64,000 nucleotides of DNA, taken from the NCBI GenBank assembly GCA_046598345.1, contig JBKJIT010000001.1, forward strand, positions 108,251-172,250, written 5' to 3'. The notes below the pieces were generated by a model. It had not been told where the DNA came from and ran no database searches. It was given only the letters and a program-made list of their open reading frames with translations. Position numbers and translations under genes: made by a program. The DNA comes from Minisyncoccia bacterium. GTDB taxonomy: Bacteria; Patescibacteriota; Minisyncoccia; Phycocordibacterales; UBA918. Below are positions 12,149 through 53,843 of this stretch, piece by piece (position 1 is the first letter of the stretch; every line of letters starts with the position of its first letter).

Positions 12149-13015
12149 ATGGCTTCAGAAAAAACAGTGCTCATTACAGGAGGTGCGGGTTTCATTGGGT
12201 CCCATCTTTCGGAGCGACTATTAAAAGATGGGTACCGTGTCATCTCACTTGATAATTATTCCACTGGATCAAAGTCCAATCATATTGAGGGGGTCGAGTA
12301 TCGAGAAGGAGATACAAATGATATTGAGACTCTTGTATCTGAAACACCGGACCTAGTATTTCATCTGGGTGAATATGCGCGCGTCGAGCAAAGCTTCGGT
12401 GCGATTGAAAGAGTTCTTAAAAGTAATGTGATTGGGACAAAGCAGGTACTTGAATTTTGCAGAAAGCGGAAATGCAAATTAGTGTACGCAGGGTCGAGCA
12501 CAAAATTTGCCGACGGAGGTATTGGACGTGATCAGAGCCCGTATGCGTGGACAAAGGCAACGAACACAGAACTTGTACGCAACTATGGCGAATGGTTTGG
12601 TCTCAAATATGCTATTACCTATTTTTATAATGTGTACGGTGACAGAGAACGGAGTGATAGTGGCTCCGGAACAGTAATTGGAATATTCAAAGAACAGTAT
12701 GAGGCGGGAAAATCACTCACCGTACGCGCGCCAGGAACTCAGCGCAGAAATTTCACTCACGTTCACGACATTGTCGATGGGATTGTGCTCGTCGGGGAGC
12801 GCGGTGAGGGAGATGAATACGGTCTCGGACACAAGCATTCGTATTCTGTCCTTGAAGTGGCAGGAATGTTTGGGAGTGAAATTGAAATGCTCCCCGAGCG
12901 TCCCGGGAATCGCATGAATTCGTCAGTTGATTATAGCCGTGCCCGACTTGAACTTGGCTGGAAGCCTAAGCGCGATCTTCCGGATTACATCGCCTCCATC
13001 ACACACAATGGTTAA
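12149..13015 (+). CDS. NAD-dependent epimerase/dehydratase (short extended-SDR, 288 aa)
   Basis: TGGAGFIGSHL Rossmann motif. SDR fold. Confidence 0.8.
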   Translation: MASEKTVLITGGAGFIGSHLSERLLKDGYRVISLDNYSTGSKSNHIEGVEYREGDTNDIETLVSETPDLVFHLGEYARVEQSFGAIERVLKSNVIGTKQVLEFCRKRKCKLVYAGSSTKFADGGIGRDQSPYAWTKATNTELVRNYGEWFGLKYAITYFYNVYGDRERSDSGSGTVIGIFKEQYEAGKSLTVRAPGTQRRNFTHVHDIVDGIVLVGERGEGDEYGLGHKHSYSVLEVAGMFGSEIEMLPERPGNRMNSSVDYSRARLELGWKPKRDLPDYIASITHNG

Positions 13016-14177
13016 ACGCGTACTCGTTTTTTCTACTGACGATCATCTCTATCCTGCAGGAGGAGCAGAGCAGGCGTTTGGAAATATTAGTGAACGCATG
13101 CCCGACGTGGAATTTGATCTCATTTGTGCAAAGCTCCGAAAAGGAGTAAAAGGGTTTGAGCGCGTAAAAAACGTTAACATCTACCGCATGGGATTTGGTA
13201 TGCCCATAATCGACAGCATCGTTCTCGCTCTCTTTGGACACTTTTGTGCCTACAAACTTATGCGCACGCATACGTATGATCTCATATGGTCAATCATGGC
13301 ATCCTATGGAGCATTTGCTGCAGTGCGTGTAAAAAAGAAAACACACATTCCATTTTTGCTCACCCTCCAAGAGGGAGATGCATTCGAACATATTTATGCC
13401 CGCGTAAAATATGTTCGAAAGTCATTTAATGAAATTTTTCAATTGGCTGACGGGTTACAGGCCATTTCAAAGTATTTGCTTACGTGGGGTAAGGAGATGG
13501 GGTTTCGTGGCGCGGATGCAAAAGTAATTCCGAATGGAGTTGACGTTGACGTGTACCTTCGAGAGTACTCTCTCGAAGAGATTGCACGTGTACGCAATGC
13601 ATTTGGGTTCGAGGCCGGTTCAACGATTCTCATTACGAGCTCTCGCCTTGAAAAGAAAAATGGGGTTGCTGATGTAATTACAGCACTCTCAAAACTTCCA
13701 CCCAAGGTATGTTTTGTAATTTGCGGGAGCGGTTCACTCGAATCAGAACTGAAAGCGCAGGTGAAGCAACTCGACCTCTCCTCTCGAGTAACATTCTTAG
13801 GTTTTGTAGACCCAAGCGAGCTACCACTTCTCATGAAAGCTTCCGATATTTTTATTCGTCCATCGCTAACCGAAGGTTTGGGCATAGCATTTTTAGAGGG
13901 AATGGCCGCGATTGGAATTATTGTTGGAACACCGGTGGGTGGTATACCTGATTTCCTTACAGATGGAAAGACGGGATTTATGGTTACTGTAGAAGATCCA
14001 GACAGTATTAAAATGGTGATAGAAAAGATTATGAGCTTAAGCGAGTCAGAGAAGGGTCTGGTTCGCAGGGAAGCGCAGTCCGTAATTCGTGAGGTATATA
14101 ATTGGGACATTGTGACACGTCACATGCAAGAGCTTTTTGATGATATAACTAGGTCTCATGAGCGCACTCATTCTTGA
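13008..14177 (+). CDS. glycosyltransferase family 4 (GT-B)
   Basis: Start ATGGTTAA overlaps the upstream stop. C-terminal GT4 signature SLTEGLGIAFLEGMAAIGIIVGTPVGGIPDFLTDGKTGFMV. Confidence 0.8.
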   Translation: MVKRVLVFSTDDHLYPAGGAEQAFGNISERMPDVEFDLICAKLRKGVKGFERVKNVNIYRMGFGMPIIDSIVLALFGHFCAYKLMRTHTYDLIWSIMASYGAFAAVRVKKKTHIPFLLTLQEGDAFEHIYARVKYVRKSFNEIFQLADGLQAISKYLLTWGKEMGFRGADAKVIPNGVDVDVYLREYSLEEIARVRNAFGFEAGSTILITSSRLEKKNGVADVITALSKLPPKVCFVICGSGSLESELKAQVKQLDLSSRVTFLGFVDPSELPLLMKASDIFIRPSLTEGLGIAFLEGMAAIGIIVGTPVGGIPDFLTDGKTGFMVTVEDPDSIKMVIEKIMSLSESEKGLVRREAQSVIREVYNWDIVTRHMQELFDDITRSHERTHS

Positions 14178-15354
14178 CGGAGAACTTAAAAGCGCACTTT
14201 CTGCAATTCGCTCGCTTGGAAAGCGTGGCATTACCGTGGTATCGGGTTCGCTCCGCGAAAGCGCAATGGGACTCCATTCAAAATGTACGAATGAGTCTTT
14301 CGTGTATCCGTCACCATATGTAGATCAAGAGGGATTTGTGGCCTCGGTGCGTGAAGCTGCCCGACGTATTGGTGATACACCAGTTGTATTCGCGTTCAGT
14401 GACGCAACGTGGCTATCACTCTACGCACATCGCGAGGTGCTGAAGGAGGACATGACGCTTGTATTTCCGAATGATGACGCGGTTGCTATTGCATTCGATA
14501 AGGCTGCGACGTATTCTCTCGCTCGCGTTTCTGGTGTCCCTACCATAACCTCGCACACCGCGGAACTTCCGAGCGAAGTTCCGTATCTCGCTGATACGCT
14601 CACGTTCCCGCTTGTGGTAAAGCCAAGACGAAGTGTTGTGTGGCGGGAAGGTCGCGGTGTCTTCGGGAGTGCCAGCTTTGTGCATGACAAAGGCGAATTA
14701 GTCAGAAAATTTTCAGAACTCAAAGATGCTTGGGGTGAAGCACCGCTCATTCAAGACCTCCTTGTGGGTGAAGAGTACGGAGTTGAGATGATTGCGTCTG
14801 AAGGTAAACCACTTGCTATCGTGACACACCACCGACTTCGGTCACTCTCACCTACGGGCGGCGCATCGGTGCTCAAGGAAACGCTGGGGCAGGGGATTCT
14901 TCGGGAAACACTTGAGGCGCATGCGTTAACACTCATTCAAAAGATCTCGTGGAGTGGACCTATTATGGTTGAGTTTAAAGTTAATAGCGATACGAGAGAG
15001 CCGAAACTCATGGAAATAAATGGACGTTTCTGGGGCTCCCTTCCACTTTCGATAGCGGCGGGAGTTGATATGCCGTACATCTACTATGCACTTGCGGAGG
15101 GGACACATAGTGATACGGAAGTAATTCGCGGTAAAGACGGGGTGACCACGCGACATTTCTTGGGAGATGTCATGCACCTCACGAGAGTACTCTGTACGCG
15201 AGATAAGTTGCGCCATCTACTCTACCCAGAGCGAAGCAAAGCAATCCGTGATTTCTGTATACTTCCGAAAGGAACGAAAAGTGATGTATGGTCGCTTCAG
15301 GATCCAAAACCCGCTATCATGGAGTTCATTGATGCAGTTAAAAAACGAACATGA
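14158..15354 (+). CDS. ATP-grasp domain ligase
   Basis: FPLVVKP, EYGVEM, MVEFKVNSDTREPKLMEINGRFWGS match ATP-grasp motifs of the CPSase/D-Ala-D-Ala ligase type. Confidence 0.7.
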   Translation: MSALILDGELKSALSAIRSLGKRGITVVSGSLRESAMGLHSKCTNESFVYPSPYVDQEGFVASVREAARRIGDTPVVFAFSDATWLSLYAHREVLKEDMTLVFPNDDAVAIAFDKAATYSLARVSGVPTITSHTAELPSEVPYLADTLTFPLVVKPRRSVVWREGRGVFGSASFVHDKGELVRKFSELKDAWGEAPLIQDLLVGEEYGVEMIASEGKPLAIVTHHRLRSLSPTGGASVLKETLGQGILRETLEAHALTLIQKISWSGPIMVEFKVNSDTREPKLMEINGRFWGSLPLSIAAGVDMPYIYYALAEGTHSDTEVIRGKDGVTTRHFLGDVMHLTRVLCTRDKLRHLLYPERSKAIRDFCILPKGTKSDVWSLQDPKPAIMEFIDAVKKRT

Positions 15355-16154
15355 CCGTCACCGCAATTCTACATACTCATTCAACGTATTCGTACGATGC
15401 GAAGCTTTCGCTTAGGGATCTTAAAGCTCTCCTCGTCACGCGTGGGGTACAGGTTGCGTGCATGACTGAACACACGGATGAAATGACGCATGAGAGCGCG
15501 GCGGCGTTTGTGCGGGAATGCGAAATATTATCCGACGATTCGTTTTTATTCATTCCTGGTTTTGAGGTGCCGACATATAACCATGCGCACATTCTTATGA
15601 TTGGTATGCGAGAATTTCTTGGAAACTATGCAAGGAATTTGGAGGAACTCCGACCTTGGGCAGAACGAGCTGCGTTTGTTGTCCTTGCGCACCCGGTGCG
15701 AAATGATTTCTTGGTTGACGACGGACTCCTTAGAATGATTGATGGGCTTGAGGTATGGAACCAACAGTATGACGGCAAACGTGTGCCGCGCACCCATTCA
15801 CTTACGCTCTACGAAAAACTTCGCGCAAGAAAGCCAGAACTTCACGCAACGGGTGGCGTTGATTTACATAGGAAGGAGCACGCTGGGGCGCCCCACATTA
15901 CGCTTGAAGTTGAAAGTCTTAGAGAGTCGCACGTGCTTGAGAAACTAAAGGTAGGTGCATATACGGTGAATTCAAAGGAGACTTCGTTTTTTGGTACGCT
16001 TCCTAATCCTGGAATGTTGAAACGCGCTCACCGAGTGGAGAGTTTCATTTCAGTAACTATTATCGTGCTTGGCAAAACGGTAAACAAAACGCTGGCCGTC
16101 GTTGGAATTACGTTACCTAAATCACTGAAGGAGCTTGTTCGGAGGCGAGTGTAG
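15351..16154 (+). CDS. PHP-domain metal-dependent phosphoesterase
   Basis: N-terminal LHTHSTYSYDAK and downstream MTEHTD / FIPGFEV histidine/aspartate motifs of the PHP fold. Confidence 0.65.
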   Translation: MTVTAILHTHSTYSYDAKLSLRDLKALLVTRGVQVACMTEHTDEMTHESAAAFVRECEILSDDSFLFIPGFEVPTYNHAHILMIGMREFLGNYARNLEELRPWAERAAFVVLAHPVRNDFLVDDGLLRMIDGLEVWNQQYDGKRVPRTHSLTLYEKLRARKPELHATGGVDLHRKEHAGAPHITLEVESLRESHVLEKLKVGAYTVNSKETSFFGTLPNPGMLKRAHRVESFISVTIIVLGKTVNKTLAVVGITLPKSLKELVRRRV

Positions 16155-17130
16155 TGATGTCTTTCATTGATGCGCTCCCCATGCCATATTTTTCTTTGAG
16201 CATTTCAAAGTGTTCAAGAATTTCTTCAAGGTTTCTAAAATTTTCTTTTTGGTTTGTGCCCACATTGTGTGGATGCCACCAGAGGTGAAATATTTCACCG
16301 CACTTTGCTGCGTGCGTCATGCTGTCTTTTATTCGTTTCATACGCAGAGATTCAAAAGGTGAGAGAAATTTATTCCAGGGTCGCAAAAAACGGCTCGCTT
16401 TAATGTCGACAGGAAACGGAGGTGATTCTTCTGGAAGTGCATATGTGTGATGTCCACTTATATTTAGGTAGTGGTCGAGAAGACGAAGACCCCGAATAAA
16501 AAGAGTTTGCTCACTATCTTTCCTCGGGGCGTACAGAAAATGTGTTTCGTTTCCACGATACGCATGGATTCCATTTCTTTTGCACGTGCGCAGTGCCTCG
16601 TCGCTCGGCTGATTGCGCGGGAAGACCATTGATTCGGTTGTGACACCGTATGTCTCAGAGATTTTTTTGTGAGCCTCTAAATCCGCTTCAAAGACGTTCG
16701 GTGGGTTGTCGTGTCCGTCCATGCAGTAAAAATGCGAGAAGGTATGGTTGGCAATTTCTTGTCCCGGAGTCGCTAAGATTTTTTCAACAAGGGAAGATCC
16801 AAAATGATATGGATCAGATTTTTCATCGTCGCCAATTTCAGTCGTGTCGAGATGGTGGTAGGCGGAAACACGCTCGTCTTCATATGTTGGCCAGAGTTCA
16901 TGCGGGGGAAGCACGCCATACAGCTCTTCCTTATTTCGTGCCATGAGCATGCCGAGGGTTGCCCACGTGGCGTGGATGTTGTGTGATTTAAAAAGTTCGA
17001 GCATCCGGGGAATTGCCGTCTGTTCTCCGAGTACATGTGGGCCGTATTCCTTAAGTGAGACCTTATCAAACATGCCCCAGAAAAGCTCAAAATCGAGCGA
17101 TATGACGAGATATCCCGGTTTGTGATCCAT
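16117..17130 (-). CDS. polysaccharide deacetylase family protein (CE4/NodB-like)
   Basis: LVISLDFELFWG N-terminus and ANHTFSHF histidine motif. Convergent with the PHP gene. Confidence 0.6.
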   Translation of the reverse strand: MDHKPGYLVISLDFELFWGMFDKVSLKEYGPHVLGEQTAIPRMLELFKSHNIHATWATLGMLMARNKEELYGVLPPHELWPTYEDERVSAYHHLDTTEIGDDEKSDPYHFGSSLVEKILATPGQEIANHTFSHFYCMDGHDNPPNVFEADLEAHKKISETYGVTTESMVFPRNQPSDEALRTCKRNGIHAYRGNETHFLYAPRKDSEQTLFIRGLRLLDHYLNISGHHTYALPEESPPFPVDIKASRFLRPWNKFLSPFESLRMKRIKDSMTHAAKCGEIFHLWWHPHNVGTNQKENFRNLEEILEHFEMLKEKYGMGSASMKDITTLASEQAPSVI

Positions 17131-17238: not shown

Positions 17239-17601
17239 ATGACATTCGAAGGTCCCAGCCCATCTTCGTCTGAGAAAAAGATGTCAGCGGAGGAATTAGG
17301 GGTTCTTGAAAAAGAATTTGATACACAATTATCTAAAATCCTGTCTGGACAATCGGATATCGTAGCACGTGTAAGGGAATTTTTTAGTTATCCAAAGGCA
17401 GTTGAGAAAAAGCAGTTAGCGCTATCTTCAGCTTATGGCCCGCAGCCCTTCAGTGGCAACATGGAAAATGTGGTAGGACAAGAAACACTCGAGGGTCTTA
17501 TCCGGGATAGTGCTGGCACTGAAAAGCAAAAAGAATATCTTGCAATAAGAACAGAAATAGAAAAGTTACGGGAACAGTATCGATATAACGCGAACATTTA
17601 A
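17239..17601 (+). CDS. hypothetical protein (120 aa)
   Basis: Clean ORF in the intergenic gap. Predicted helical. No recognisable motif. Confidence 0.5.
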   Translation: MTFEGPSPSSSEKKMSAEELGVLEKEFDTQLSKILSGQSDIVARVREFFSYPKAVEKKQLALSSAYGPQPFSGNMENVVGQETLEGLIRDSAGTEKQKEYLAIRTEIEKLREQYRYNANI

Positions 17602-17715
17602 ATTAGCGGAATTATTTCCGACCATTCAGTGATGGTGTAAACATTTTGGAGAAATAAATAAATCCTAAGGTAAAAAAGCATTCATGCTTAAGTCTGCCAA
17701 TTGTAGCGTTTGTAT

Positions 17716-18828
17716 ATGAAAATCCTTATCGCGACAGGTTTATATCCTCCCGACATCGGAGGTCCTGCAACGCATACACTCTTTCTTGAAAAAAATCTTC
17801 CGACGCATGGCATTTCGTACGCTGTGGTTCCCTTTGGTTCCGTACGGAAATATCCTCCGCTCATTCGTCATCTCGTATATGCAGTAAAACTCCTTCGAGC
17901 GGGACGCTCATGTGATGCGCTCTATGCGCTCGATACGGTTTCAGTGGGTTTTCCTTGCATGCTCGCTGCAATACTCCTCCGCAAACCGTTCTATCTTCGT
18001 GTTCCGGGTGATTATGCGTGGGAGCAGGGCCAGCAGCGATGGGGACTTATGGAAACGCTCGATGCGTACCTTGAGGAACGAAAGCACGCGCCGTTTTTTG
18101 TTCGACTTTTTGCATTCATCCAAACGCGTGTGGCGCGTAGAGCGACGCATGTCATTGTGCCAAGTGACTACATGAAACGTGTGGTGACATCATGGGGTAT
18201 TGATGCTCATCGCATTACACGCGTCTACAGTGCTCTTCAATCTCTTGAAGTCCGTGAACCCAAAGAAGTGCTTCGGAAGCAATTTGGTTTAAAAGGATTT
18301 GTGGTCATGACCGCTGCGCGCCTCGTGCCGTGGAAGGGGGTGAGCGCGCTCATTGATGCAATTGCGTCCCTCAGAAAAGAAGGATTCGATGTATCGCTCC
18401 AGGTCGTGGGTGATGGTCCACTCCGAGAGACGCTGAGGAAACGTGCTTGGGAAAAGGGGATTGCAGAGTGTGTGTACTTTCAGGGCGCGGTGTCCCATGA
18501 CCTCCTTGCAAAGTATCTCAAAGCGTCTGATGCGTTTGTGCTTAACACCTCCTATGAGGGAATGTCACATCAACTTCTCGAAGTCATGAGTCTCGGGATT
18601 CCCGTTATTACGACGCCTGTGGGGGGAAACGAAGAACTCATTACCCATATGCAGGAGGGAATTCTTGTACCCTTTAATGATACAGAAAAAATTAAAGAAG
18701 CACTTAAGGAACTATGCGAAAGTGAACAACTTCGGAGCGCACTCGTGGCCCACGCGCGACTCCGACTCTCTGCTTTTTCTGAAGACACGAGCATACGAGA
18801 GATTGTGTCCGTCTTAAAAAACGGATAA
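17716..18828 (+). CDS. glycosyltransferase family 4
   Basis: MKILIATGLYPPDIGGPATH N-terminus. C-terminal EGMSHQLLEVMSLGIPVITTPVGGNEE. Confidence 0.8.
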   Translation: MKILIATGLYPPDIGGPATHTLFLEKNLPTHGISYAVVPFGSVRKYPPLIRHLVYAVKLLRAGRSCDALYALDTVSVGFPCMLAAILLRKPFYLRVPGDYAWEQGQQRWGLMETLDAYLEERKHAPFFVRLFAFIQTRVARRATHVIVPSDYMKRVVTSWGIDAHRITRVYSALQSLEVREPKEVLRKQFGLKGFVVMTAARLVPWKGVSALIDAIASLRKEGFDVSLQVVGDGPLRETLRKRAWEKGIAECVYFQGAVSHDLLAKYLKASDAFVLNTSYEGMSHQLLEVMSLGIPVITTPVGGNEELITHMQEGILVPFNDTEKIKEALKELCESEQLRSALVAHARLRLSAFSEDTSIREIVSVLKNG

Positions 18829-18887
18829 TTTTTAAAATGCGTTCAGGCTTGTAAAGATGCTGTAATAAGATATCGTACTCTCTATCT

Positions 18888-31778: not shown

Positions 31779-31782
31779 ACTC

Positions 31783-36972: not shown

Positions 36973-36975
36973 TCT

Positions 36976-47670: not shown

Positions 47671-48853
47671 GATGCATACGAGTGGTAAATTGAATGGCCG
47701 GGGATCTCCCCGGTCTTTTTCTTATTCAGAATTAGCTTGCATATTCTTGCTGTGTGTGGAGAATGAATGGGTGTCAAAACGGTCATTTCTTGTTGTGTTG
47801 GGAGCGCGTCCGAATTTCGTAAAGGCAGCGCCCTTTTTTCGTCGTGCAAAAGAGTACCCAGAATTTGAATTTAAGCTGGTCCATACTGGACAACATTTTG
47901 ATGACAATATGTCTAAAATCTTTTTCGAGGAGATGCAAATCCCCAAACCGGATATCCATTTAGACATAAAGGGTGATTTTCACACAGAAAAAATAGGCAA
48001 AATGTTTACAGCTCTAAAAGAGGTGGTCCGCACTCACGGACAGGATGGTGTAATTGTTTTTGGAGACATTAACTCGACCCTCGCTGGGGCTGTTGCTGCT
48101 GCTACTGAACGAAAGCGGATCATTCATATAGAATCCGGTCTACGTAGCCACGACCGAAGAATGCCTGAGGAAATCAATAGAGCGATCGTTGATCACCTCA
48201 GTGACCTACTTTTTGTGACCGAAGAATCCGGGAAGGAGAATTTACTCAAGGAAGGTATATCTGAGGAAAGGATTCATGTTGTAGGAAACATTATGATTGA
48301 GAGTATTGAGCTTTTTAAAAACCATTTTCATAGTTCAAATGTGCACGAACAACTCTTAACCACTCCCCAAGATTATTATGTTGCCACTATACATCGTTCT
48401 GAAAATACTGATGATGTGCACATTTTAGAGAAGATTATGAATATTCTAGATGCACTTTCAAAAGAAAAGCCGATTGTTATGCCACTTCATCCAGGAACTC
48501 GTCAGAAATTACTGAATTTTGGACTTGAAAAAAAATTGCAAGGAATTAAAGTAATCGAACCATTGGGTTACATAGATTTTATGAAACTCGTTATCGATTC
48601 ATCCGGTGTAGTAACAGACTCGGGAGGTATTCAGGAAGAAACTTCTCATTTGGGCATTCCATGTAGTACGCTACGGGAGAACACCGAGCGCCCAATAACC
48701 GTATCTTTAGGATCTAATAAGTTGTTTAACATTGATGACATTTCTTTAGAGGCTCTCATTGCCCATTTGGGAAGGAAAGATTTTAAGTCGAATCATATTC
48801 CACTTTGGGATAAGGATGTCAGTAAAAGGATTTTAGATATTTTAAGAAAATGA
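47660..48853 (+). CDS. UDP-N-acetylglucosamine 2-epimerase (WecB/NeuC family); probable GTG start near 47771
   Basis: LGARPNFVK...HTGQHFD..MS..FF family signature. 397 aa in track. Confidence 0.8.
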   Translation: MRCEMHTSGKLNGRGSPRSFSYSELACIFLLCVENEWVSKRSFLVVLGARPNFVKAAPFFRRAKEYPEFEFKLVHTGQHFDDNMSKIFFEEMQIPKPDIHLDIKGDFHTEKIGKMFTALKEVVRTHGQDGVIVFGDINSTLAGAVAAATERKRIIHIESGLRSHDRRMPEEINRAIVDHLSDLLFVTEESGKENLLKEGISEERIHVVGNIMIESIELFKNHFHSSNVHEQLLTTPQDYYVATIHRSENTDDVHILEKIMNILDALSKEKPIVMPLHPGTRQKLLNFGLEKKLQGIKVIEPLGYIDFMKLVIDSSGVVTDSGGIQEETSHLGIPCSTLRENTERPITVSLGSNKLFNIDDISLEALIAHLGRKDFKSNHIPLWDKDVSKRILDILRK

Positions 48854-49602
48854 AACAAAAAAAAGTATTGGGAATTATACCAGCACGACTTAACTCAACA
48901 CGGCTTCCGCGCAAAATGCTGCAAGATATTTGTGGGAAGCCGATGATTCAGTGGACGTACGAGAGTGTAAAAAAGGCAAAAATTTTGGATGCTGTTGTTG
49001 TGGCAACTGACTCTATAGAAATCGCCGATGCGGTGAAAGCGGTTGGTGGTATGGTACTTATGACTTCTTCCAAACCCAAGAATGGGACAGAAAGGGTAGC
49101 TGAAGCTGCGCGACTATTTAACGGCTTTAAACCCGATATTGTTATCAACATCCAAGGAGATGAACCCATGATGCCTGTTTCTGCAATTACGAAAACGGTA
49201 GAACTACTGCTCGCAGATGGAAAAACAGTCATGTCTACAGTAGCCCGGCCATTTCCCAAAGGAGGTAACTTAGCGGAACCAGGGCAGGTAAAAGTAGTCC
49301 TTGATAAAGATAATTATGCGCTTTATTTCTCAAGGTCAAAGATTCCATATGAGAGAACGCCGTATGCCAAATTTTATAATCATATTGGAATTTATGGATA
49401 CCAGTATGAGTTTTTGCAAAAATTTGTAACCTTTAGGCAGACACCGTTAGAAAAAGCAGAACTTCTTGAGCAACTTCGTGCGCTTGAAAACGGATTCAAA
49501 ATCAAGGTGGGAATAGGAAAGTATGAAAGGCTTGAAGTAAATGAGCCGCATGAGTTAGAGGCTGTGCGTAAAATGATGGCAAGACGCTTGAAATCAAGGT
49601 AA
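48850..49602 (+). CDS. kdsB: 3-deoxy-manno-octulosonate cytidylyltransferase-like (CMP-Kdo synthetase family; CMP-sugar synthetase)
   Basis: IIPARLNSTRLPRKML and NIQGDEPMM. 250 aa, the expected KdsB length. Confidence 0.7.
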   Translation: MKQKKVLGIIPARLNSTRLPRKMLQDICGKPMIQWTYESVKKAKILDAVVVATDSIEIADAVKAVGGMVLMTSSKPKNGTERVAEAARLFNGFKPDIVINIQGDEPMMPVSAITKTVELLLADGKTVMSTVARPFPKGGNLAEPGQVKVVLDKDNYALYFSRSKIPYERTPYAKFYNHIGIYGYQYEFLQKFVTFRQTPLEKAELLEQLRALENGFKIKVGIGKYERLEVNEPHELEAVRKMMARRLKSR

Positions 49603-49674: not shown

Positions 49675-51321
49675 ATGCAGAATGAAGAGCAAAAAGAGGA
49701 TATTCTGAACCTTCCGCGCCTTAATGTTAAAGGTCGTCAACTTCACGATCTTGAGGTAATGCTCGTAGGTGGATTTTTCCCAGTTGAGGGCTTCATGGAT
49801 GAGGCAGACTACAATGCTGTCGTCGAGACTATGCACCTCGCAGATGGACAGATTTTTCCTATTCCTATTGTCCTCGACGTGCCACACGATAGCCCATATC
49901 ACGTAGGGGATCGAATCCTCCTCTGTGATCCGTTTGGAAATCCGCTTGCGATCATGAACGTGAGTTCGCGATTTACGCCAGATAAGCAAAACGAAGTACT
50001 AAAGGTCTATGGTACAGATGACCCAATGCATCCGGGTGTTCAGTATGTCCTCGATGAAATGCATGATACCTATATTGGTGGACCGGTAGCACATTTGGCA
50101 CTTCCAGTACGTCATGATTTTAAGCAGTGGAGACGGACACCGGCAGAACTCAAGGCACTTTTTAAAGAACGAGGTTGGGACAAGGTCGTTGGGTTCCAAA
50201 CACGTAACCCAATGCACCGCGCACATTTTGAGCTCGTGAAGCGTGCGTCAGAGACGGTTGGCGCACCAGTCCTCATTCATCCTGTAGTTGGTATGACGAA
50301 ACCGGGCGACATTGATTATGTCACTCGTGTGCGAACGTATAATGTTGTGCATTCAAAGTATGGAAAAGACTTTACAGAACTTTCGCTCTTACCGCTTGCA
50401 ATGCGAATGGCGGGACCGCGTGAGGCAGTGTGGCACTCGATCATTAGGCGAAACTACGGCTGCACGCACTTCATTGTGGGGCGCGATCATGCGGGGCCAG
50501 GAAAGGGAAGTGACGGCAAAGATTTTTACGGTCCGTATGAGGCCAGAGATCTTGCGCTTACTTGTGCGGACGAAGTAGGAATCACCATTGTGCCTTCGGA
50601 CGAACTCGCATATTCAAAGACACGCGATGCGTATGTTTCGACGAGTGAAGTAACTCCGGAGGACGAGATTGAGAATATTTCCGGCACTGAATTCCGACGC
50701 CGACTCTTTGCAGGAGAAGAAATTCCCGATTGGTTTTCATTTAAGGAAAGCATTGATATTTTACGCCAAAGTGTGAAGCGCGATACGCGCCCTGGAGTAG
50801 CTGTGTTTTTTACGGGTCTTTCATGTTCCGGAAAATCAACGCTTGCAAACCTTCTCCTTGCACGACTCCAGGAAATCCAAGACAGAGAGATTACACTCCT
50901 CGATGGCGATTTGATTCGGGCACACCTTTCAAAAGGACTTGGATTCTCAAAGGAGGATCGGGATGAAAATGTGAAGCGTGTCGGGTTTGTGGCGAGCGAA
51001 ATTGTGCGACACGGGGGTATTGTAATTTGCGCCCTTATTGCACCGTACAAGGATGCACGTCGCTACGTACGCAACCTGATCGAGCAGCACGGTGAATTCG
51101 TTGAAATTTTTGTCGAGACCTCGCTCGAAGAATGTGCTCGTCGCGATACAAAGGGTCTCTATGAAAAGGCGAAGCAGGGACTCATTAAAAATTTCACGGG
51201 CGTTGATGATCCGTATGAGATTCCTGAAAGCCCTGAACTTGTGGCCAAAACGGAGGAGGCGACTCCTGAGATGCTTGTCGAAGAAATCATTTCTAGCTTG
51301 AAAGACCGCAAGGTACTGTAA
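49675..51321 (+). CDS. bifunctional sulfate adenylyltransferase (Sat-type ATP sulfurylase) / adenylylsulfate kinase (CysC): PAPS synthase
   Basis: GFQTRNPMHRAHFEL and GRDHAG motifs of ATP sulfurylase. C-terminal APS kinase P-loop GLSCSGKSTLAN. Confidence 0.85.
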   Translation: MQNEEQKEDILNLPRLNVKGRQLHDLEVMLVGGFFPVEGFMDEADYNAVVETMHLADGQIFPIPIVLDVPHDSPYHVGDRILLCDPFGNPLAIMNVSSRFTPDKQNEVLKVYGTDDPMHPGVQYVLDEMHDTYIGGPVAHLALPVRHDFKQWRRTPAELKALFKERGWDKVVGFQTRNPMHRAHFELVKRASETVGAPVLIHPVVGMTKPGDIDYVTRVRTYNVVHSKYGKDFTELSLLPLAMRMAGPREAVWHSIIRRNYGCTHFIVGRDHAGPGKGSDGKDFYGPYEARDLALTCADEVGITIVPSDELAYSKTRDAYVSTSEVTPEDEIENISGTEFRRRLFAGEEIPDWFSFKESIDILRQSVKRDTRPGVAVFFTGLSCSGKSTLANLLLARLQEIQDREITLLDGDLIRAHLSKGLGFSKEDRDENVKRVGFVASEIVRHGGIVICALIAPYKDARRYVRNLIEQHGEFVEIFVETSLEECARRDTKGLYEKAKQGLIKNFTGVDDPYEIPESPELVAKTEEATPEMLVEEIISSLKDRKVL

Positions 51322-51540: not shown

Positions 51541-51608
51541 TCTTTATACAGGGGAGGGTATCTCGTGGTATAGTCTTCGACACATGAATCCCATTAAGAG
51601 TAGAGGGA

Positions 51609-53843
51609 TTGCGCAAAGAGTTACTAACTTTTAATTTCACTCGGATGAAAGATATTGCAAAAGGAATAGTGTATTTGGGAGTTTTTGCCATCCCATTTAT
51701 TCCCCTCATTATTTCCAACACAATGTTTTTTCCCTTTATTACGGGAAAAAATTTCACCTTCCGCGTCATTGTTGAAATTATTTTTGCAGCATGGATACTA
51801 CTCGCTCTCTATGAACCTCTCTATAGGCCACGTTTTTCGTGGATAGTCGCTGGGTTTACATCGCTCCTCGTCGTAATGTTTTTTGCGAATCTTTTCGGGG
51901 CAAACCCGCTCCAGAGTTTTTGGAGCAATTTCGAACGTATGGAAGGGTATGTCACCTTGGTGCATATGTTCCTCTACTTTCTTGTGGCTGGGAGTGTACT
52001 TACTACTGATAAGCTTTGGAACCGTTTTTTCAACACAACACTTTTTGCAGCAGTACTCCTCTCGCTCTATGCATTTGCGCAGCTTTCTGGGAATATTGTT
52101 ATCAATCAGGGAGGATGGCGTCTCGATGGAACTCTGGGTAATTCAGCGTATATGGCAATCTATATGCTTTTCCACAGCTTCATAGCGCTCTTTATGCTTG
52201 TACGGACGCGTACTCGAGGACTTCAATACACGTATGGGGCGCTTTTAATTCTATTCATTTTTCTTCTCATACAGACAGCGACTCGCGGTTCAATAATCGG
52301 ATTTTTCGGGGGCCTCTTTGTGACAACGCTCTACATCACGCTATTTATCAAGGATCATCCACGAGTTCGTAAGGTAGCAATATCTTCACTCGTTGCTGTG
52401 GTTGCTCTTGTTGGACTCTTTGTTGCATTTAGGGACTCAGCACTTATTCAAAGCAACCCCTACCTCGGTCGAGTCGCGAACATAACGCTGAGTGAAGGAA
52501 ATGTACGTTTTAAAGTGTGGAATATGGCGATTGAAGGATTTAAGGAACGCCCAGTTCTTGGATGGGGACAGAGTAATTTCAACTACGTTTTCAATGAGCA
52601 CTATGATCCATCAATCTACTTTGCTGAATCATGGTATGACCGGGTGCACGATATTGCATTCGATTGGCTCATTGCAGGGGGTGTCTTAGGATTCATTGCG
52701 TACTTCTCGATTCTAGCTGCAGCACTCTACTACCTTTTCTTTAGACCACTCTTTAAGAAAGACGATGAGTCAATGACTGTGGTTGAGCGGGGTGTGCTCC
52801 TCGGTCTCCTTGCGGGATATGTCTTCCATAATATTTTCGTGTTCGACAACATCGTAAGTTATGTCTATTACGGAACCATCCTCGCATTTATTCATTCACG
52901 TGTTGCGTCGGCAATACCCAAGGTGGCAGCAGCAAAATTTGACACGCGTGTACTCGAACAGATTGCTACACCTGTTGTTGGGGTCGCACTCTTGTTTGTG
53001 ATCTACTTTGTGAATGCACCGGGTATTCGAGCTGCGAGTGACATTATTGATGCATTTTCAACACAGTCTCCAGACGCAGCCTTCCAACAGTTTGACGAAG
53101 CACTCTCGCGTAATTCATTTGGAAACCAGGAAATCCGGGAACAGCTCACGAGACAGGCACAAGCACTCATCCAGGATCCTAAAGCCGATGCAGCTCTTAA
53201 GGAAAAGGTGAAAGCACGTGTGGAAGAAGAGCTCATTAAGCAGATTGAGGAAAAGCCTAATGATGCACGTGTGCATGTATTCATTAGCTCCTTCTATCGA
53301 ATGACGGGGGATATTGATAAGGCAATCGAACAACTCGAAATAGCTCGTTCTCTTTCTCCACAAAAGCAGCAAATTATTTTTGAACAGGGGCTCGCGCATC
53401 TCCAGAAGGGTGAGAACGACATAGCACTCGCATACTTTAAAGAGGCGTATGATCTTGCACCTTCTTACTCGGAAGCCGCAGTATTCTATGCAGTTGCAGG
53501 ACTTTTCGCGGGGAAGCCAGAGATTATAGACGAAGTTCTTACCACCAAAGAGCTTAGAGATAGCTTCTCAGAAAATGATCTTGCCGTGCAAGCTGCGTAC
53601 AGCACGAAGCAATTTGATGTTCTCGAAAATATATTTAAGACTCGAATAGAACGGAAACCGGAAGATCCTCAGGCACGTACCAATCTTGCGTTTATCCTGA
53701 ATGAACAGGGTAAAACAACCGAGGCGATTGAAATTCTGAACCAAGCAGCGAAAGATATTCCGTCATTTGAAGGACAGTCACAGCAGTTTATTGCGAGTCT
53801 CCTTGCGGGAAACAGTCCAACGACGAGCCCTGTAGCACCGTAG
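51609..53843 (+). CDS. O-antigen ligase-domain (Wzy_C) membrane protein fused to C-terminal TPR repeats; putative O-oligosaccharyltransferase or polymerase
   Basis: About 12 TM N-terminal half with TATRGSIIGFFGGL (Wzy_C-like loop). The C-terminal 300 aa is soluble, helical and TPR-like. Confidence 0.65.
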   Translation: MRKELLTFNFTRMKDIAKGIVYLGVFAIPFIPLIISNTMFFPFITGKNFTFRVIVEIIFAAWILLALYEPLYRPRFSWIVAGFTSLLVVMFFANLFGANPLQSFWSNFERMEGYVTLVHMFLYFLVAGSVLTTDKLWNRFFNTTLFAAVLLSLYAFAQLSGNIVINQGGWRLDGTLGNSAYMAIYMLFHSFIALFMLVRTRTRGLQYTYGALLILFIFLLIQTATRGSIIGFFGGLFVTTLYITLFIKDHPRVRKVAISSLVAVVALVGLFVAFRDSALIQSNPYLGRVANITLSEGNVRFKVWNMAIEGFKERPVLGWGQSNFNYVFNEHYDPSIYFAESWYDRVHDIAFDWLIAGGVLGFIAYFSILAAALYYLFFRPLFKKDDESMTVVERGVLLGLLAGYVFHNIFVFDNIVSYVYYGTILAFIHSRVASAIPKVAAAKFDTRVLEQIATPVVGVALLFVIYFVNAPGIRAASDIIDAFSTQSPDAAFQQFDEALSRNSFGNQEIREQLTRQAQALIQDPKADAALKEKVKARVEEELIKQIEEKPNDARVHVFISSFYRMTGDIDKAIEQLEIARSLSPQKQQIIFEQGLAHLQKGENDIALAYFKEAYDLAPSYSEAAVFYAVAGLFAGKPEIIDEVLTTKELRDSFSENDLAVQAAYSTKQFDVLENIFKTRIERKPEDPQARTNLAFILNEQGKTTEAIEILNQAAKDIPSFEGQSQQFIASLLAGNSPTTSPVAP

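What the first reader, a model, noticed from the sequence alone, without database searches (positions are those of the whole stretch)
12149..53843. A 42 kb contiguous glycan-biosynthesis supercluster occupies two-thirds of the window
The interval is essentially uninterrupted sugar-chemistry genes.

- At least ten GT4/GT-B glycosyltransferases, one GT8-like enzyme, five SDR epimerase/dehydratases and two CE4 deacetylases.
- An ATP-grasp ligase, a PHP phosphoesterase and two AsnB amidotransferases.
- A sulfotransferase and a PAPS synthase.
- Four methyltransferases (one class I, one FkbM, two TylF-like) and a PhyH-like oxygenase.
- A KpsF/KdsB/2-epimerase module, a Wzx flippase, a GtrA-like protein, a GT-C-like membrane protein and a Wzy_C-TPR protein.

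For a small-genome organism this is a very large investment. It predicts a Wzx/Wzy-dependent, heavily decorated heteropolysaccharide or protein-linked glycan of at least 8 to 10 sugars. Many members are divergent (the GT-B at 21008, the GT8-like gene, the 42972 ORF), so the structure is probably not a described O-antigen or capsule type.
Basis: partly seen in the sequence, partly recalled or inferred. Interest (0 to 1): 0.8.

Follow-up and report, generated by a model that had tools for sequence, protein, structure and literature searches.

The report
Conserved sulfated-glycan locus in Paceibacteria
The 42-kb stretch is a genuine cell-surface sugar-chain factory in an ultra-small uncultured (CPR/Paceibacteria) bacterium, built from gene modules shared across that lineage, including a sulfation module and a previously unnamed enzyme family, but it belongs to a known kind of system.

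Summary
Of 39 ORFs in 12149-53843, 32 pass Pfam thresholds for glycan-related families, and 42972, which has no Pfam hit, models as a GT-B enzyme. Counts need correcting: 8 GT4 (not at least 10) and 4 SDRs (not 5).

The organism is a Paceibacterium (SecA 76% to a Ca. Paceibacterota MAG). Independent contigs from one run match most of the window at 99.99-100%, and I found no sign of a chimera.

The new point is that the locus is lineage-conserved, not idiosyncratic. It fills a fixed slot between murC/DUF4015/VirD4-like ATPase and murB-secA.
- **Module A (12149-26907):** SDR, GT4, ATP-grasp, PHP, CE4, four more GT4, sulfotransferase, CE4 and AsnB. It recurs almost gene for gene in two other genomes at 30-80% identity. 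Its sulfotransferase and ATP-grasp each have about 1,300 homologues.
- **Module B core (39313-45818, plus 51609-53843):** GT8-like, AsnB, KpsF, orphan GT-B, Wzx and Wzy_C-TPR. Its genes recur upstream of secA in five relatives, not all in each.

Most likely a lipid-linked, acidic, amidated, methylated and sulfated oligosaccharide is flipped by Wzx. Wzy_C-TPR then transfers or polymerises it. That architecture matches PglL and WsfB O-oligosaccharyltransferases. No initiating transferase, Wzz, KdsA or LCP ligase lies in the window.

The parts
12149..13015 (+). Module A: SDR NAD-dependent sugar epimerase/dehydratase
   Evidence: Pfam Epimerase 156.8 bits. 78-80% identical, over partial alignments, to the first gene of the syntenic modules in L170 and L171.
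12927..14177 (+). Module A: GT4 glycosyltransferase. The true start is probably the Met at about 13005.
   Evidence: Glycos_transf_1 120 bits. L171 68%, L170 65%, L091 39%.
14158..15354 (+). Module A: ATP-grasp ligase (ATPgrasp_Ter type), a putative amide-forming decoration enzyme
   Evidence: Pfam 49.2 bits. AF2 pLDDT 91.3, with an ATP-grasp fold closest to biotin carboxylase or CPS. 1,319 homologues; the top 120 are 54-69% identical. Named sources are Minisyncoccia, Ca. Kaiserbacteria and Ca. Pacebacteria.
15351..16154 (+). Module A: PHP-domain metallo-phosphoesterase
   Evidence: Pfam PHP 23.9 bits (below the 26.4 cutoff) and NCBIfam CehA_McbA domain 60.9 bits. L171 73%, L170 63%, always next to the ATP-grasp gene.
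16117..17130 (-). Module A: CE4 polysaccharide deacetylase with no signal peptide or TM segment
   Evidence: Polysacc_deac_1 30.2 bits. L171 67%, L170 62%, L090 49%. N-terminus inspected.
17239..17601 (+). 120-aa ORF of unknown function, not conserved in relatives; it may be spurious
   Evidence: No Pfam hit and no homologue in any fetched locus. It lies in the divergent intergenic region.
17710..20030 (+). Module A: two GT4 glycosyltransferases (17710-18828 and 18888-20030)
   Evidence: Glycos_transf_1 124.7 and 136.8 bits. Syntenic in L170, L171, L090 and L091.
20040..20975 (+). SDR epimerase/dehydratase, an extra gene relative to L170 and L171
   Evidence: Epimerase 215 bits. No NCBIfam equivalog cutoff is reached. 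Absent at this position in L170 and L171.
21008..22402 (+). Module A: divergent GT4-type GT-B glycosyltransferase with an N-terminal extension
   Evidence: Glycos_transf_1 46.4 bits. Homologues of about 470 aa sit at the same position in L171 (51%), L170 (47%) and L090 (30%).
22429..23439 (+). Module A: GT4-family protein in which only the C-terminal domain is detected
   Evidence: Glyco_trans_1_2 45.8 bits. L171 62%, L091 33%.
23436..24278 (+). Module A: PAPS-dependent carbohydrate sulfotransferase
   Evidence: Sulfotransfer_1 66.2 bits. The nearest solved relatives are a bacterial sulfotransferase (4.9e-23), heparan-sulfate 3-O-sulfotransferases (1.4e-18) and the NDST sulfotransferase domain (9e-14). 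5'-PSB, Glu/His and 3'-PB motifs are conserved. 1,279 homologues; the top 120 are 57-72% identical.
24263..25087 (+). Module A: second CE4 deacetylase, overlapping the sulfotransferase stop by 16 nt
   Evidence: Polysacc_deac_1 74.5 bits. The same adjacency is seen in L170 and L171.
25075..26907 (+). Module A: AsnB-type glutamine amidotransferase
   Evidence: Asn_synthase 238 bits. TIGR01536 410.6 bits, above the 267.1 cutoff. L171 72%, L170 54%, L090 45%, L088 42%, L091 40%.
26938..28056 (+). GT-C-type (PMT_2/ArnT-like) integral membrane glycosyltransferase with about 10 TM segments
   Evidence: PMT_2 30.6 bits, above the 26.1 cutoff. Hydropathy. No homologue in the fetched loci.
28062..29533 (-). 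FAD-dependent oxidoreductase (NAD_binding_8 / amine-oxidase / weak GLF) split into two 250-aa ORFs by a -1 frameshift at about 28818-28828
   Evidence: The split is identical in an independent Logan contig. A full-length 536-aa FAD-binding protein, of which only the 3' end lies in the locus, precedes GtrA in L087; tblastn detected no similarity to the window's two ORFs.
29702..30151 (-). GtrA-family small membrane protein (flippase for polyprenyl-P-sugar)
   Evidence: GtrA_DPMS_TM 75.7 bits. L087 37%, L091 28%.
30290..31126 (+). Short-form NDP-sugar dehydrogenase-like protein with N-terminal and central domains only; the GGHCFIKD Cys motif is kept
   Evidence: UDPG_MGDP_dh_N and central domain. 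TIGR03026 122 bits, below cutoff. 278-aa homologues in L171 (62%) and L091 (52%) show it is a family and not a truncation.
31194..39354 (.). Variable decoration block of nine genes: class I MT (31194), SDR (31729), GT4 (32764), FkbM MT (33674), SDR (34720), GT4 (35800), Methyltransf_24 (36976), Methyltransf_24 (37639, - strand) and a weak PhyH-like ORF (38236/38377-39354)
   Evidence: Pfam results. GT4 32764 is 36-42% identical to genes in L086, L088, L089 and L090. The MTs and the PhyH-like ORF have no homologue in the fetched loci, although analogous MT, PhyH and FkbM genes occupy this zone in L087 and L088.
39313..40149 (-). Module B core: GT8-like GT-A glycosyltransferase (DPD motif)
   Evidence: Glyco_transf_8 23.8 bits against a 24.3 cutoff. 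54-57% identical in L085-L089, where Pfam GT8 is on record for four of the five homologues.
40160..41962 (-). Module B core: second AsnB-type amidotransferase
   Evidence: Asn_synthase 157 bits. 44-47% identical in L086, L088 and L089 at the same position.
41968..42975 (+). Module B core: KpsF/GutQ-family sugar-phosphate (arabinose-5-P) isomerase, SIS+CBS
   Evidence: TIGR00393 233 bits, above the 203.7 cutoff. 43-48% identical in L086, L088 and L089.
42972..44441 (+). Module B core: orphan GT-B-fold transferase family (about 490 aa), unnamed and seen so far only under Patescibacteria labels
44559..45818 (-). Module B core: Wzx-type (MOP/Polysacc_synt) flippase
   Evidence: Polysacc_synt 69.5 bits. 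33-40% identical in L085, L087-L089 and L010.
45909..47015 (+). GT4 glycosyltransferase
   Evidence: Glyco_trans_1_4 66.8 bits.
47080..47670 (+). NUDIX-like ORF with a degenerate Nudix box. It is GC-rich relative to its neighbours and is followed by a strong hairpin with a T-tract.
   Evidence: NUDIX 20.2 bits against a 21.1 cutoff. GC 0.51 against about 0.40 for neighbours. Hairpin at 47696-47715.
47660..48853 (+). WecB, non-hydrolysing UDP-GlcNAc 2-epimerase. The probable true start is 47756.
   Evidence: TIGR00236 282 bits, above the 210 cutoff. The independent gene call is 365 aa.
48850..49602 (+). KdsB, CMP-Kdo synthetase
   Evidence: TIGR00466 208 bits, above the 155 cutoff, and NF003952 281 bits.
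49675..51321 (+). Bifunctional ATP sulfurylase/APS kinase (PAPS synthase)
   Evidence: NF004040 778.6 bits, above the 669 cutoff. 80% identical in the closest genome, L001, again directly upstream of Wzy_C-TPR.
51609..53843 (+). Wzy_C-domain membrane protein (about 12 TM segments) with a C-terminal TPR domain: a glycan ligase, O-oligosaccharyltransferase or polymerase
   Evidence: Wzy_C 58.3 bits plus TPR families. Weak match to WaaL 7tpg (E 0.056). Found directly upstream of (murB-)secA in L001, L004, L006, L010, L085, L087, L088 and L089.

Best explanation
The interval is a genuine chromosomal cell-envelope glycan locus of a Paceibacteria (CPR/Patescibacteria) bacterium. It fills a conserved slot between murC-DUF4015-VirD4-like ATPase and murB-secA. 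It is a mosaic of lineage-conserved modules, not a one-off O-antigen-like island.

**Inferred mechanism.**
1. Nucleotide sugars are made or tailored in the cytoplasm. The enzymes are 4 SDRs, WecB (UDP-ManNAc), a short NDP-sugar dehydrogenase (uronic acids), KpsF plus KdsB (a CMP-activated Kdo-type sugar), and PAPS synthase.
2. These are assembled on a polyprenyl-phosphate carrier by 8 GT4, one GT8-like and one orphan GT-B transferase.
3. The intermediate is decorated before export. Two AsnB enzymes would amidate carboxylates. The ATP-grasp plus PHP pair would form an amide and then dephosphorylate. Two cytoplasmic CE4 enzymes would de-N-acetylate. A heparan-sulfate-type sulfotransferase would add sulfate. 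Four methyltransferases would methylate.
4. Wzx flips the product.
5. The Wzy_C-TPR protein hands it to its final acceptor or polymerises it. Given the monoderm host and the PglL/WsfB-like architecture, the acceptor is most likely a surface protein (S-layer or pilin) or a wall component.
6. GtrA plus the GT-C enzyme may add a further sugar outside the membrane.

**Shown:** family assignments, synteny and conservation, the fold of 42972, and the sulfotransferase catalytic motifs.

**Inferred:** all substrates, the order of steps, whether there is one glycan or several, and the acceptor.
For: - **Families:**
- **Host:** SecA is 76% identical to a Ca. Paceibacterota MAG, and all close hits are Patescibacteria.
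- **Independent contigs:** Logan contigs from SRR31159418 match the window at 99.99-100% over 15075-31271, 36519-46977 and 47042-61321.
- **Left border:** L091 shows MurC-DUF4015-ATPase (71%) followed by GT4s, GtrA, the short dehydrogenase and AsnB.
- **Right border:** (PAPS synthase-)Wzy_C-TPR-(MurB-)SecA is conserved in 8 loci.
- **Module A:** it recurs almost gene for gene in L170 and L171; the window additionally has SDR 20040 and ORF 17239. Identities are 43-80% for eleven of the twelve genes and 30-34% for GT4 18888.
- **Module A family sizes:** the sulfotransferase and ATP-grasp each have about 1,300 homologues and co-occur on about 10 contigs.
- **Module B core:** its genes recur together upstream of secA in L085-L089, though no locus shows all of them (AsnB in L086, L088, L089; KpsF in L086, L088, L089).
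- **Sulfotransferase:** closest to heparan-sulfate glucosamine sulfotransferases, with PAPS-binding and Glu/His residues invariant.
- **PAPS synthase:** above the equivalog cutoff.
- **Precedents:** Wzy_C + TPR is the architecture described for PglL and the S-layer O-OTase WsfB, and the P. alvei slg locus also has an AsnB homologue (PMC2943079). An ATP-grasp amidoligase followed by a phosphatase is a proven glycan-decoration logic in C. jejuni (PMC11800379).
- **Operon packing:** genes 12149-28056 overlap or are separated by at most 109 nt.
Against: - The window has no initiating phosphoglycosyltransferase (WecA/MraY-type or WbaP-type), no GT2 polyprenyl-P-sugar synthase for the GtrA/GT-C branch, no Wzz, no LCP ligase, and no KdsA or KdsC. 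These may lie elsewhere on the 174-kb contig but were not seen.
- The role of Wzy_C-TPR (OTase, ligase or polymerase) cannot be decided from sequence.
- Modules A and B are conserved separately, so two products are possible.
- The low-GC middle (about 28-50 kb) is fragmented in the independent assembly. Junctions at about 30.08 kb (11-bp overlap) and 46.98-47.04 kb (64-bp gap) are not spanned, and 31.27-36.5 kb was not covered by any contig I could retrieve.
- One gene is frameshifted.
- There is no expression or chemical evidence.
Confidence: 0.6

Rival explanations
1. Classical Wzx/Wzy-dependent polymerised heteropolysaccharide (a capsule or secondary cell-wall polymer). In this reading the Wzy_C-TPR protein, or the GT-C-like 26938 protein, acts as the repeat-unit polymerase, and the polymer is then attached to peptidoglycan or released.
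For: Wzx and a Wzy_C-domain protein are both present. There are many GTs and decoration genes, as in O-antigen and capsule loci. E. coli O-antigen clusters also lack their initiating wecA (own knowledge), so the missing initiating enzyme is not decisive. The locus lies among mur genes.
Against: The window has no Wzz/PCP chain-length regulator, no tyrosine kinase or Wza-type export, and no LCP ligase. Module A is too conserved for a serotype-like variable polymer: 57-72% identity over more than 100 clusters. The Wzy_C + C-terminal TPR architecture is described for O-OTases, not for Wzy polymerases.
Confidence: 0.25
2. Two or more independent glycans are encoded side by side. Module A (12149-28056) would make a lineage-wide sulfated, amidated wall-associated glycan. 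Module B (31194-53843) would make a separate, more variable Wzx-exported glycan.
For: Module A is found in L170 and L171 followed by different downstream genes, including in L171 a TagF-like Glyphos_transf plus a cytidylyltransferase. Module B core is seen in L085-L089 without ATP-grasp, PHP or sulfotransferase within 10 kb. GC3 differs: about 0.42-0.52 for A against 0.32-0.40 for B.
Against: The window has only one flippase (Wzx) and one Wzy_C protein. The PAPS synthase needed by module A's sulfotransferase sits at the far end of module B, next to Wzy_C-TPR. L088 has module-A-type AsnB and GT4 genes directly upstream of module B. L091 shows GT genes running on from the left border.
Confidence: 0.3
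3. The cluster is an artefact or foreign: either a chimeric join of contigs from different organisms, or a recently acquired mobile island.
For: GC drops from about 0.47 to about 0.40 between 28 and 50 kb. The independent Logan assembly breaks at about 30.08, 31.27, 36.5 and 47.0 kb, all inside that stretch.
Against: The GC transitions at about 28 kb and about 50 kb lie inside single independent contigs at 100% identity. Low-GC genes such as Wzx, the orphan GT-B, KpsF and GT8 are syntenic with murB-secA in five Paceibacteria contigs. Housekeeping genes obg and gatB have equally low GC3. Tetranucleotide correlation with the housekeeping flanks is 0.83-0.87 for every segment. There are no IS elements, integrases, flanking repeats or border tRNAs.
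Confidence: 0.04

Closest known systems
S-layer protein O-glycosylation (slg) loci of monoderm bacteria (Paenibacillus alvei WsfB, Geobacillus stearothermophilus WsaB) and the PglL/PilO pilin O-glycosylation systems
   Same: A lipid-linked glycan is built by cytoplasmic GTs and exported. A Wzy_C-domain enzyme then transfers it. WsfB and PglL carry a C-terminal TPR like the protein at 51609. The P. alvei locus also contains an AsnB homologue, wsfA (PMC2943079).
   Different: No S-layer or pilin gene, and no initiating WsaP/WbaP-type enzyme, lies in the window. No PglL_A domain was detected. The present locus is far larger and adds sulfation, ATP-grasp/PHP, Kdo-pathway and GT-C/GtrA genes. Transfer to protein is untested.
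Wzx/Wzy-dependent O-antigen and capsule gene clusters
   Same: Nucleotide-sugar genes, many GTs, a Wzx flippase and a Wzy_C-family membrane protein are clustered together. AsnB-type amidotransferases and methyltransferases serve as decorators.
   Different: No Wzz, PCP, Wza or LCP genes are present. The host has no LPS acceptor (a monoderm CPR; own knowledge). Sequence and gene order are conserved across a whole class-level lineage, unlike hypervariable serotype loci.
Heparan-sulfate sulfotransferases (3-OST, NDST N-sulfotransferase domain) and PAPS-dependent sulfation of bacterial glycans
   Same: The best characterised solved relatives are 3-OSTs and NDST. The 5'-PSB, 3'-PB and catalytic Glu/His motifs align. 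A deacetylase gene directly abuts the sulfotransferase, echoing NDST's deacetylate-then-sulfate logic. A PAPS synthase is in the locus.
   Different: The deacetylase is a separate CE4 protein and not the NDST deacetylase domain. N- versus O-sulfation and the acceptor are unknown. The enzymes are cytoplasmic and presumably act on a lipid-linked intermediate.
Campylobacter jejuni HS:2 capsule glucuronamide decoration (Cj1438 C-terminal ATP-grasp amidoligase plus Cj1435 phosphatase)
   Same: An ATP-grasp ligase gene is paired with a phosphoesterase gene inside a glycan locus that also has a uronic-acid-forming dehydrogenase-like gene.
   Different: The ATP-grasp here is ATPgrasp_Ter/CPS-like, not TupA-like. 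The phosphatase is PHP, not HAD. No serinol-phosphate or ethanolamine-phosphate synthesis genes were seen. The similarity is of logic only.
TagF/TarL CDP-polyol phosphotransferases and other GT-B enzymes that use CMP- or CDP-activated donors (WaaA, polysialyltransferase)

Membership tests
Wzx/Wzy-dependent polysaccharide pathway | Initiating polyprenyl-phosphate phosphoglycosyltransferase (WecA/MraY-type PF00953 or WbaP-type PF02397) | tested here: not met
   No such Pfam hit in any ORF of at least 100 aa in the window. It may lie elsewhere in the genome.
Wzx/Wzy-dependent polysaccharide pathway | Wzx (MOP-family) flippase | tested here: met
   44559-45818 (- strand): Polysacc_synt 69.5 bits, above the 28.2 cutoff, with 9 or more TM segments.
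Wzx/Wzy-dependent polysaccharide pathway | Dedicated Wzy repeat-unit polymerase | tested here: inconclusive
   A Wzy_C-domain protein is present (58.3 bits). The domain is shared with WaaL ligases and PglL/WsfB O-OTases, so function cannot be assigned.
Wzx/Wzy-dependent polysaccharide pathway | Chain-length regulator (Wzz/PCP) and, in monoderms, an LCP ligase | tested here: not met
   No Wzz, GNVR or LytR_cpsA_psr hit in the window.
PglL/WsfB-type protein O-glycosylation | Wzy_C-domain oligosaccharyltransferase, often with a C-terminal TPR | tested here: met
   51609-53843 has Wzy_C plus several TPR families at residues about 540-720. The architecture is as described for WsfB and PglL.
PglL/WsfB-type protein O-glycosylation | Glycan is transferred to Ser/Thr of a surface protein (S-layer or pilin) | not testable with these tools
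   This needs glycoproteomics or a heterologous OTase assay. No candidate acceptor gene is in the window.
Kdo (CMP-Kdo) biosynthesis pathway KdsD-KdsA-KdsC-KdsB | Arabinose-5-phosphate isomerase (KdsD/KpsF) | tested here: met
   TIGR00393 KpsF/GutQ 233 bits, above the 203.7 cutoff. The KdsD equivalog cutoff is not reached (227 < 505).
Kdo (CMP-Kdo) biosynthesis pathway KdsD-KdsA-KdsC-KdsB | Kdo-8-P synthase KdsA and phosphatase KdsC | tested here: not met
   No DAHP_synth_1 or KdsC-type HAD hit in the window.
Kdo (CMP-Kdo) biosynthesis pathway KdsD-KdsA-KdsC-KdsB | CMP-Kdo synthetase KdsB | tested here: met
   TIGR00466 208 bits, above the 155.2 cutoff.
PAPS-dependent carbohydrate sulfation | PAPS supply (ATP sulfurylase plus APS kinase) | tested here: met
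   NF004040 778.6 bits, above the 669 cutoff.
PAPS-dependent carbohydrate sulfation | Sulfotransferase with 5'-PSB and 3'-PB motifs and a catalytic base | tested here: met
   The motifs GAQKSATS, KEIHFF and RNPIDRAYS align to 3-OST-3. E35, H37, R95, N96, P97, R100 and S103 are invariant in 23 family members.
PAPS-dependent carbohydrate sulfation | The acceptor is a sugar of this glycan | not testable with these tools
   Inferred only, from conserved position inside module A and from similarity to glucosamine sulfotransferases.
TagF-like (Glyphos_transf) polyol-phosphate transferases, for ORF 42972 | Match to PF04464 or a significant profile similarity | tested here: inconclusive
GT4 glycosyltransferases, for ORF 42972 | Match to Glycos_transf_1 (C-domain) and Glyco_transf_4 (N-domain) | tested here: not met
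   No C-domain hit in any member. Only 9 of 43 members have weak N-domain hits, the best at 8.7e-7. hhalign to a window GT4 gives probability 0.5%.

The most novel reading that the evidence does not exclude
Paceibacteria (Parcubacteria-type CPR bacteria) share a conserved biosynthetic module for a sulfated, de-N-acetylated and amidated acidic surface glycan. This would be a bacterial counterpart of glycosaminoglycan-style deacetylate-then-sulfate chemistry. An unnamed GT-B family linked to KpsF would take part in assembly, and a PglL/WsfB-like Wzy_C-TPR enzyme encoded next to secA would install the glycan on surface proteins or the wall. Such a glycan would be a lineage-wide surface determinant of these episymbiotic ultra-small cells.
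Probability: 0.3. Interest if true: 0.75.

Novelty: new variant of a known kind. Interest (0 to 1): 0.5.

Why it matters
CPR/Patescibacteria live attached to other microbes, and their surface chemistry is essentially unexplored. A recent Saccharibacteria pilus study explicitly calls their glycosylation 'unexplored' (PMC11623550). My library searches found no description of Parcubacterial glycan loci, O-antigen-ligase-like genes or sulfotransferases.

Three results here give concrete, testable targets:
- About 4-7% of such a genome is a glycan locus in a fixed chromosomal slot.
- Its sulfation/amidation module has about 1,300 homologues, and the few that carry organism names are Parcubacteria-type CPR.
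- It contains an uncharacterised GT-B family of about 400 clusters at 50% identity.

The targets are the sulfotransferase plus CE4 pair, the orphan GT-B and Wzy_C-TPR. They bear on host attachment, phage receptors and envelope biology in CPR. This is still a glycan gene cluster, a well-known kind of system, and no chemistry is demonstrated.

Tried and rejected
- **Chimeric assembly or mobile island: rejected.** Independent contigs match at 99.99-100%. The borders and the core are syntenic in relatives. There are no repeats, IS elements or border tRNAs. Tetranucleotide correlation with the flanks is 0.83-0.87.
- **Truncated pseudogene reading of the 278-aa dehydrogenase: rejected.** Equally short homologues exist in L091 and L171.
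- **Sialic or legionaminic-acid reading of the 2-epimerase/cytidylyltransferase pair: rejected.** The epimerase is WecB-type (282 bits against 85 for NeuC), the cytidylyltransferase is KdsB, and there is no NeuB.
- **Metagenome scan with the 21008 GT-B:** found nothing.
- **Sequence searches of 42972 and its family profile against PDB:** nothing. Fold searches gave only a generic GT-B result.
- **Fold search of the ATP-grasp:** only generic biotin-carboxylase or CPS-type hits, with no functional analogue.
- **Promoter and terminator scans:** not above shuffled expectation.
- **Cluster-member look-up for taxon names of sulfotransferase homologues:** returned no names.
- **Literature searches for CPR or Parcubacteria glycan, O-antigen-ligase or sulfotransferase descriptions:** nothing relevant.
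- **SecA exact look-up:** failed, apparently because the gene call differs in some way.

Full report
**Observation**

ORF listing and Pfam scans of all 39 ORFs of at least 100 aa in 12149-53843 confirm an almost uninterrupted run of sugar-chemistry genes.
- 32 of the 39 ORFs exceed Pfam gathering thresholds for glycan-related families.
- Five more have sub-threshold hits of the expected type: PHP 15351, GLF fragment 28062, PhyH 38236, GT8 39313 and NUDIX 47080.
- Two have no hit at all: 17239 and 42972.

NCBIfam places five genes above curated cutoffs: KpsF (41968), KdsB (48850), non-hydrolysing WecB (47660), the bifunctional ATP sulfurylase/APS kinase (49675) and AsnB (25075). None of the SDRs reaches an equivalog cutoff.

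- There are 8 GT4 genes, not at least 10. There are nine GT-B transferases if 42972 is included.
- There are 4 SDRs, not 5.

- an FAD oxidoreductase split into two 250-aa ORFs (28062-29533, - strand)
- a short NDP-sugar dehydrogenase-like gene (30290)
- a NUDIX-like ORF (47080)

The flanks are housekeeping genes. Upstream lie tRNA-Ile, murD, murC, an RsmI-like methylase, a DUF4015 glycoside-hydrolase-like protein and a VirD4/TraG-like ATPase. Downstream lie murB, secA, a holin-4-family gene, a DedA/VTT gene, obg and gatB.

**Organism and integrity**

- SecA finds its best genome match (76%) in a Candidatus Paceibacterota MAG, and all close hits are Patescibacteria.
- The exact 42972 protein is on an NCBI contig of 174,316 bp.
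- Related contigs that carry the same locus are 0.6-1.05 Mb. By inference, 42 kb is about 4-7% of such a genome.
- Independent Logan contigs of run SRR31159418 match the window at 99.99-100% over 15075-30086, 30076-31271, 36519-46977 and 47042-61321.
- The GC drop from about 0.47 to about 0.40 at 28-50 kb begins and ends inside single independent contigs.
- GC3 of obg and gatB is as low as that of the low-GC genes.
- Tetranucleotide correlation with the housekeeping flanks is 0.83-0.87 for every segment.
- There are no IS elements, flanking repeats or border tRNAs.
- Two joins remain unverified. The contigs overlap by only 11 bp at about 30.08 kb, and a 64-bp gap lies at 46.98-47.04 kb.
- I regard a chimera as unlikely (about 4%).

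**Synteny: the main new result**

The locus sits in a conserved chromosomal slot.

*Right border.* Wzy_C-TPR lies immediately upstream of (murB-)secA in eight loci: L001, L004, L006, L010, L085, L087, L088 and L089. In the closest genome, L001, the PAPS synthase (80% identical) precedes Wzy_C-TPR (59%), murB and secA.

*Left border.* The groundwater contig L091 has MurC (46%), DUF4015 (42%) and the VirD4-like ATPase (71%). These are followed by GT4s, GtrA, the short dehydrogenase (52%), the 22429-like GT and AsnB.

*Module A (12149-26907).* In two other assemblies it recurs almost gene for gene: L170 from GCA_040384005.1 and L171 from GCA_964502345.1. The shared order is SDR, GT4, ATP-grasp, PHP, CE4(-), GT4, GT4, a GT-B of about 470 aa, GT4-C, sulfotransferase, CE4, AsnB. 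Identities are 43-80% for eleven of the twelve genes and 30-34% for the GT4 corresponding to 18888. The window additionally carries SDR 20040 and ORF 17239, which are absent from L170 and L171.
- The sulfotransferase has 1,279 homologues at E<=1e-5; the top 120 are 57-72% identical and about 278 aa long.
- The ATP-grasp has 1,319 homologues at E<=1e-10. The named ones come from Minisyncoccia, Ca. Kaiserbacteria and Ca. Pacebacteria.

*Module B core.* The genes are GT8-like (54-57% identical), AsnB (44-47%), KpsF (43-48%), the orphan protein of about 490 aa (35-44%), Wzx and Wzy_C-TPR. They recur together upstream of secA in L085-L089, though no locus shows all of them: AsnB is seen in L086, L088 and L089, KpsF in L086, L088 and L089, and in L088 KpsF sits next to Wzy_C-TPR. 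Variable methyltransferase, PhyH, FkbM, GT9 and SDR genes are interspersed.

**The orphan ORF 42972**

- It has no Pfam, NCBIfam or PDB sequence match, even with a family profile.
- The family has 394 clusters (at 50% identity) at E<=1e-30. All members are about 490 aa, and the few names given are Patescibacteria or Parcubacteria.
- AF2 gives a confident model: pLDDT 91.6, pTM 0.90.
- Member-wise Pfam scans give weak GT4 N-domain hits in 9 of 43 members and one Glyphos_transf hit.
- hhalign to the TagF-like protein of L171 gives E 4.9e-4 (probability 32%), against 0.5% for a window GT4.
- Invariant residues include Q251-H252 and K357.
- From memory, the motifs FKLRPD and TYSTFLYD resemble the K-x-H-P and DYSS-x-x-FD motifs of TagF-type enzymes.
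- My reading is that this is a new GT-B transferase family. Its donor may be CMP- or CDP-activated, consistent with its KpsF neighbour. That inference is weak (about 0.3).

**Sulfation**

- The nearest solved relatives of the sulfotransferase are a bacterial sulfotransferase (3rnl), human heparan-sulfate 3-O-sulfotransferases (E 1.4e-18) and the NDST N-sulfotransferase domain (9e-14). Aryl sulfotransferases score only about 1e-3.
- The 5'-PSB (GAQKSATS), Glu/His (KEIHFF) and 3'-PB (RNPIDRAYS) motifs align to 3-OST-3. E35, H37, R95, N96, P97, R100 and S103 are invariant in the family.
- A CE4 deacetylase follows with a 16-nt overlap here and in L170.
- Both CE4 proteins lack signal peptides, so they probably act in the cytoplasm.
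- With a bona fide PAPS synthase in the locus, sulfation of a hexosamine-containing intermediate is the best inference. N- versus O-sulfation is open.

**Other decoration logic (inferred)**

- Two AsnB-type amidotransferases, together with the short dehydrogenase that keeps its catalytic-Cys motif, point to amidated uronic acids.
- The conserved ATP-grasp/PHP pair parallels the proven C. jejuni Cj1438C amidoligase and Cj1435 phosphatase sequence (PMC11800379). The parallel is in logic only. The ATP-grasp fold search was generic.
- WecB implies ManNAc. KpsF plus KdsB imply a Kdo-type sugar, but KdsA and KdsC are absent from the window.
- GtrA plus a GT-C (PMT_2) protein suggest an extracytoplasmic addition. 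No GT2 polyprenyl-P-sugar synthase is present.

**Export and acceptor**

- One Wzx and one Wzy_C-TPR protein are present.
- No initiating PGT, Wzz or LCP ligase lies in the window.
- Wzy_C with a C-terminal TPR is the architecture reported for PglL and for the P. alvei S-layer O-OTase WsfB. That locus also carries an AsnB homologue (PMC2943079).
- I therefore favour transfer to a surface protein or wall acceptor over classical Wzy polymerisation. This cannot be decided computationally.

**Novelty and score**

Glycan loci are a known kind of system. Three things are new here:
- the lineage-wide conserved architecture in Paceibacteria
- the conserved sulfation and amidation module
- the unnamed GT-B family

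Library searches found no prior description. CPR glycosylation is described as unexplored (PMC11623550).

I rate the finding as a new variant of a known kind, with interest 0.5.

Noticed in passing
window 28062-29533 (- strand), shift at about 28818-28828: An FAD oxidoreductase is split into two 250-aa ORFs by a -1 shift at the run CAAAAGGGGTA. The 0-frame reads CAA AAG GGG, giving an X XXY YYZ-like heptamer A AAG GGG. The split is identical in the independent Logan contig. It could be a pseudogene, a homopolymer error or a programmed -1 frameshift. A full-length 536-aa FAD-binding protein precedes GtrA in L087, but tblastn detected no similarity to the window's ORFs.
   Followed up: partly
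window 58266-58327: A perfect 29-nt inverted repeat with a 4-nt loop begins at the secA stop codon. It looks like a terminator or regulatory hairpin. The mechanically listed ORF start at 58246 overlaps it, and an independent gene call starts the holin-4-family gene at 58351.
   Followed up: no
window 55500-55622: A tiny Lys/Ala-rich ORF (MAAKKKAAKKTAKRKAAKKTAKRKTTAKRK) containing a 27-nt tandem repeat lies between murB and secA. Small ORFs occupy the same spot in L085, L087 and L089.
   Followed up: no
window 9957-11966; L007, L009-L012, L015, L031, L091: A VirD4/TraG-like coupling ATPase lies at the left border of the glycan locus here and in L091 (71%). In more distant Patescibacteria it lies 8-9 kb downstream of secA, implying a rearrangement that brought it to the other side of the locus.
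   Followed up: partly
window 8330-9712: A membrane-anchored DUF4015 (glycoside-hydrolase-like) protein is conserved at the left border (L091, 42%). It may be a processing hydrolase for the glycan or the wall.
   Followed up: no
window 47080-47715: The NUDIX-like ORF has GC 0.51 against about 0.40 for its neighbours and a degenerate Nudix box (GX5EX7RTLRAKMG). It is followed by the only strong hairpin plus T-tract in the locus (47696-47715). The independent assembly breaks just upstream of it (46977/47042). It may be a separately acquired gene.
   Followed up: partly
window about 30076-31271, 36519 and 46977-47042: All break points of the independent Logan assembly fall in the low-GC middle of the locus, and no repeats within the window explain them. 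This may reflect strain-level gene-content variation in the sample.
   Followed up: partly
L171 19290-20849: In a genome with module A, the downstream genes include a bona fide TagF-like Glyphos_transf (463 aa) next to an IspD/CTP_transf_3 cytidylyltransferase. This hints at polyol-phosphate (teichoic-acid-like) chemistry in related loci.
   Followed up: partly
L085, L087, L088, L089: GT9 (heptosyltransferase-family) genes and DUF6165 recur in the relatives' versions of the locus but are absent from the window. A GT9 gene with KpsF in organisms believed to lack LPS is odd.
   Followed up: no
window 58689-59342: A DedA/VTT-family membrane protein is encoded just downstream of secA. This family has been implicated in polyprenyl-phosphate recycling (own knowledge), which could be relevant to a lipid-linked glycan pathway.
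   Followed up: no
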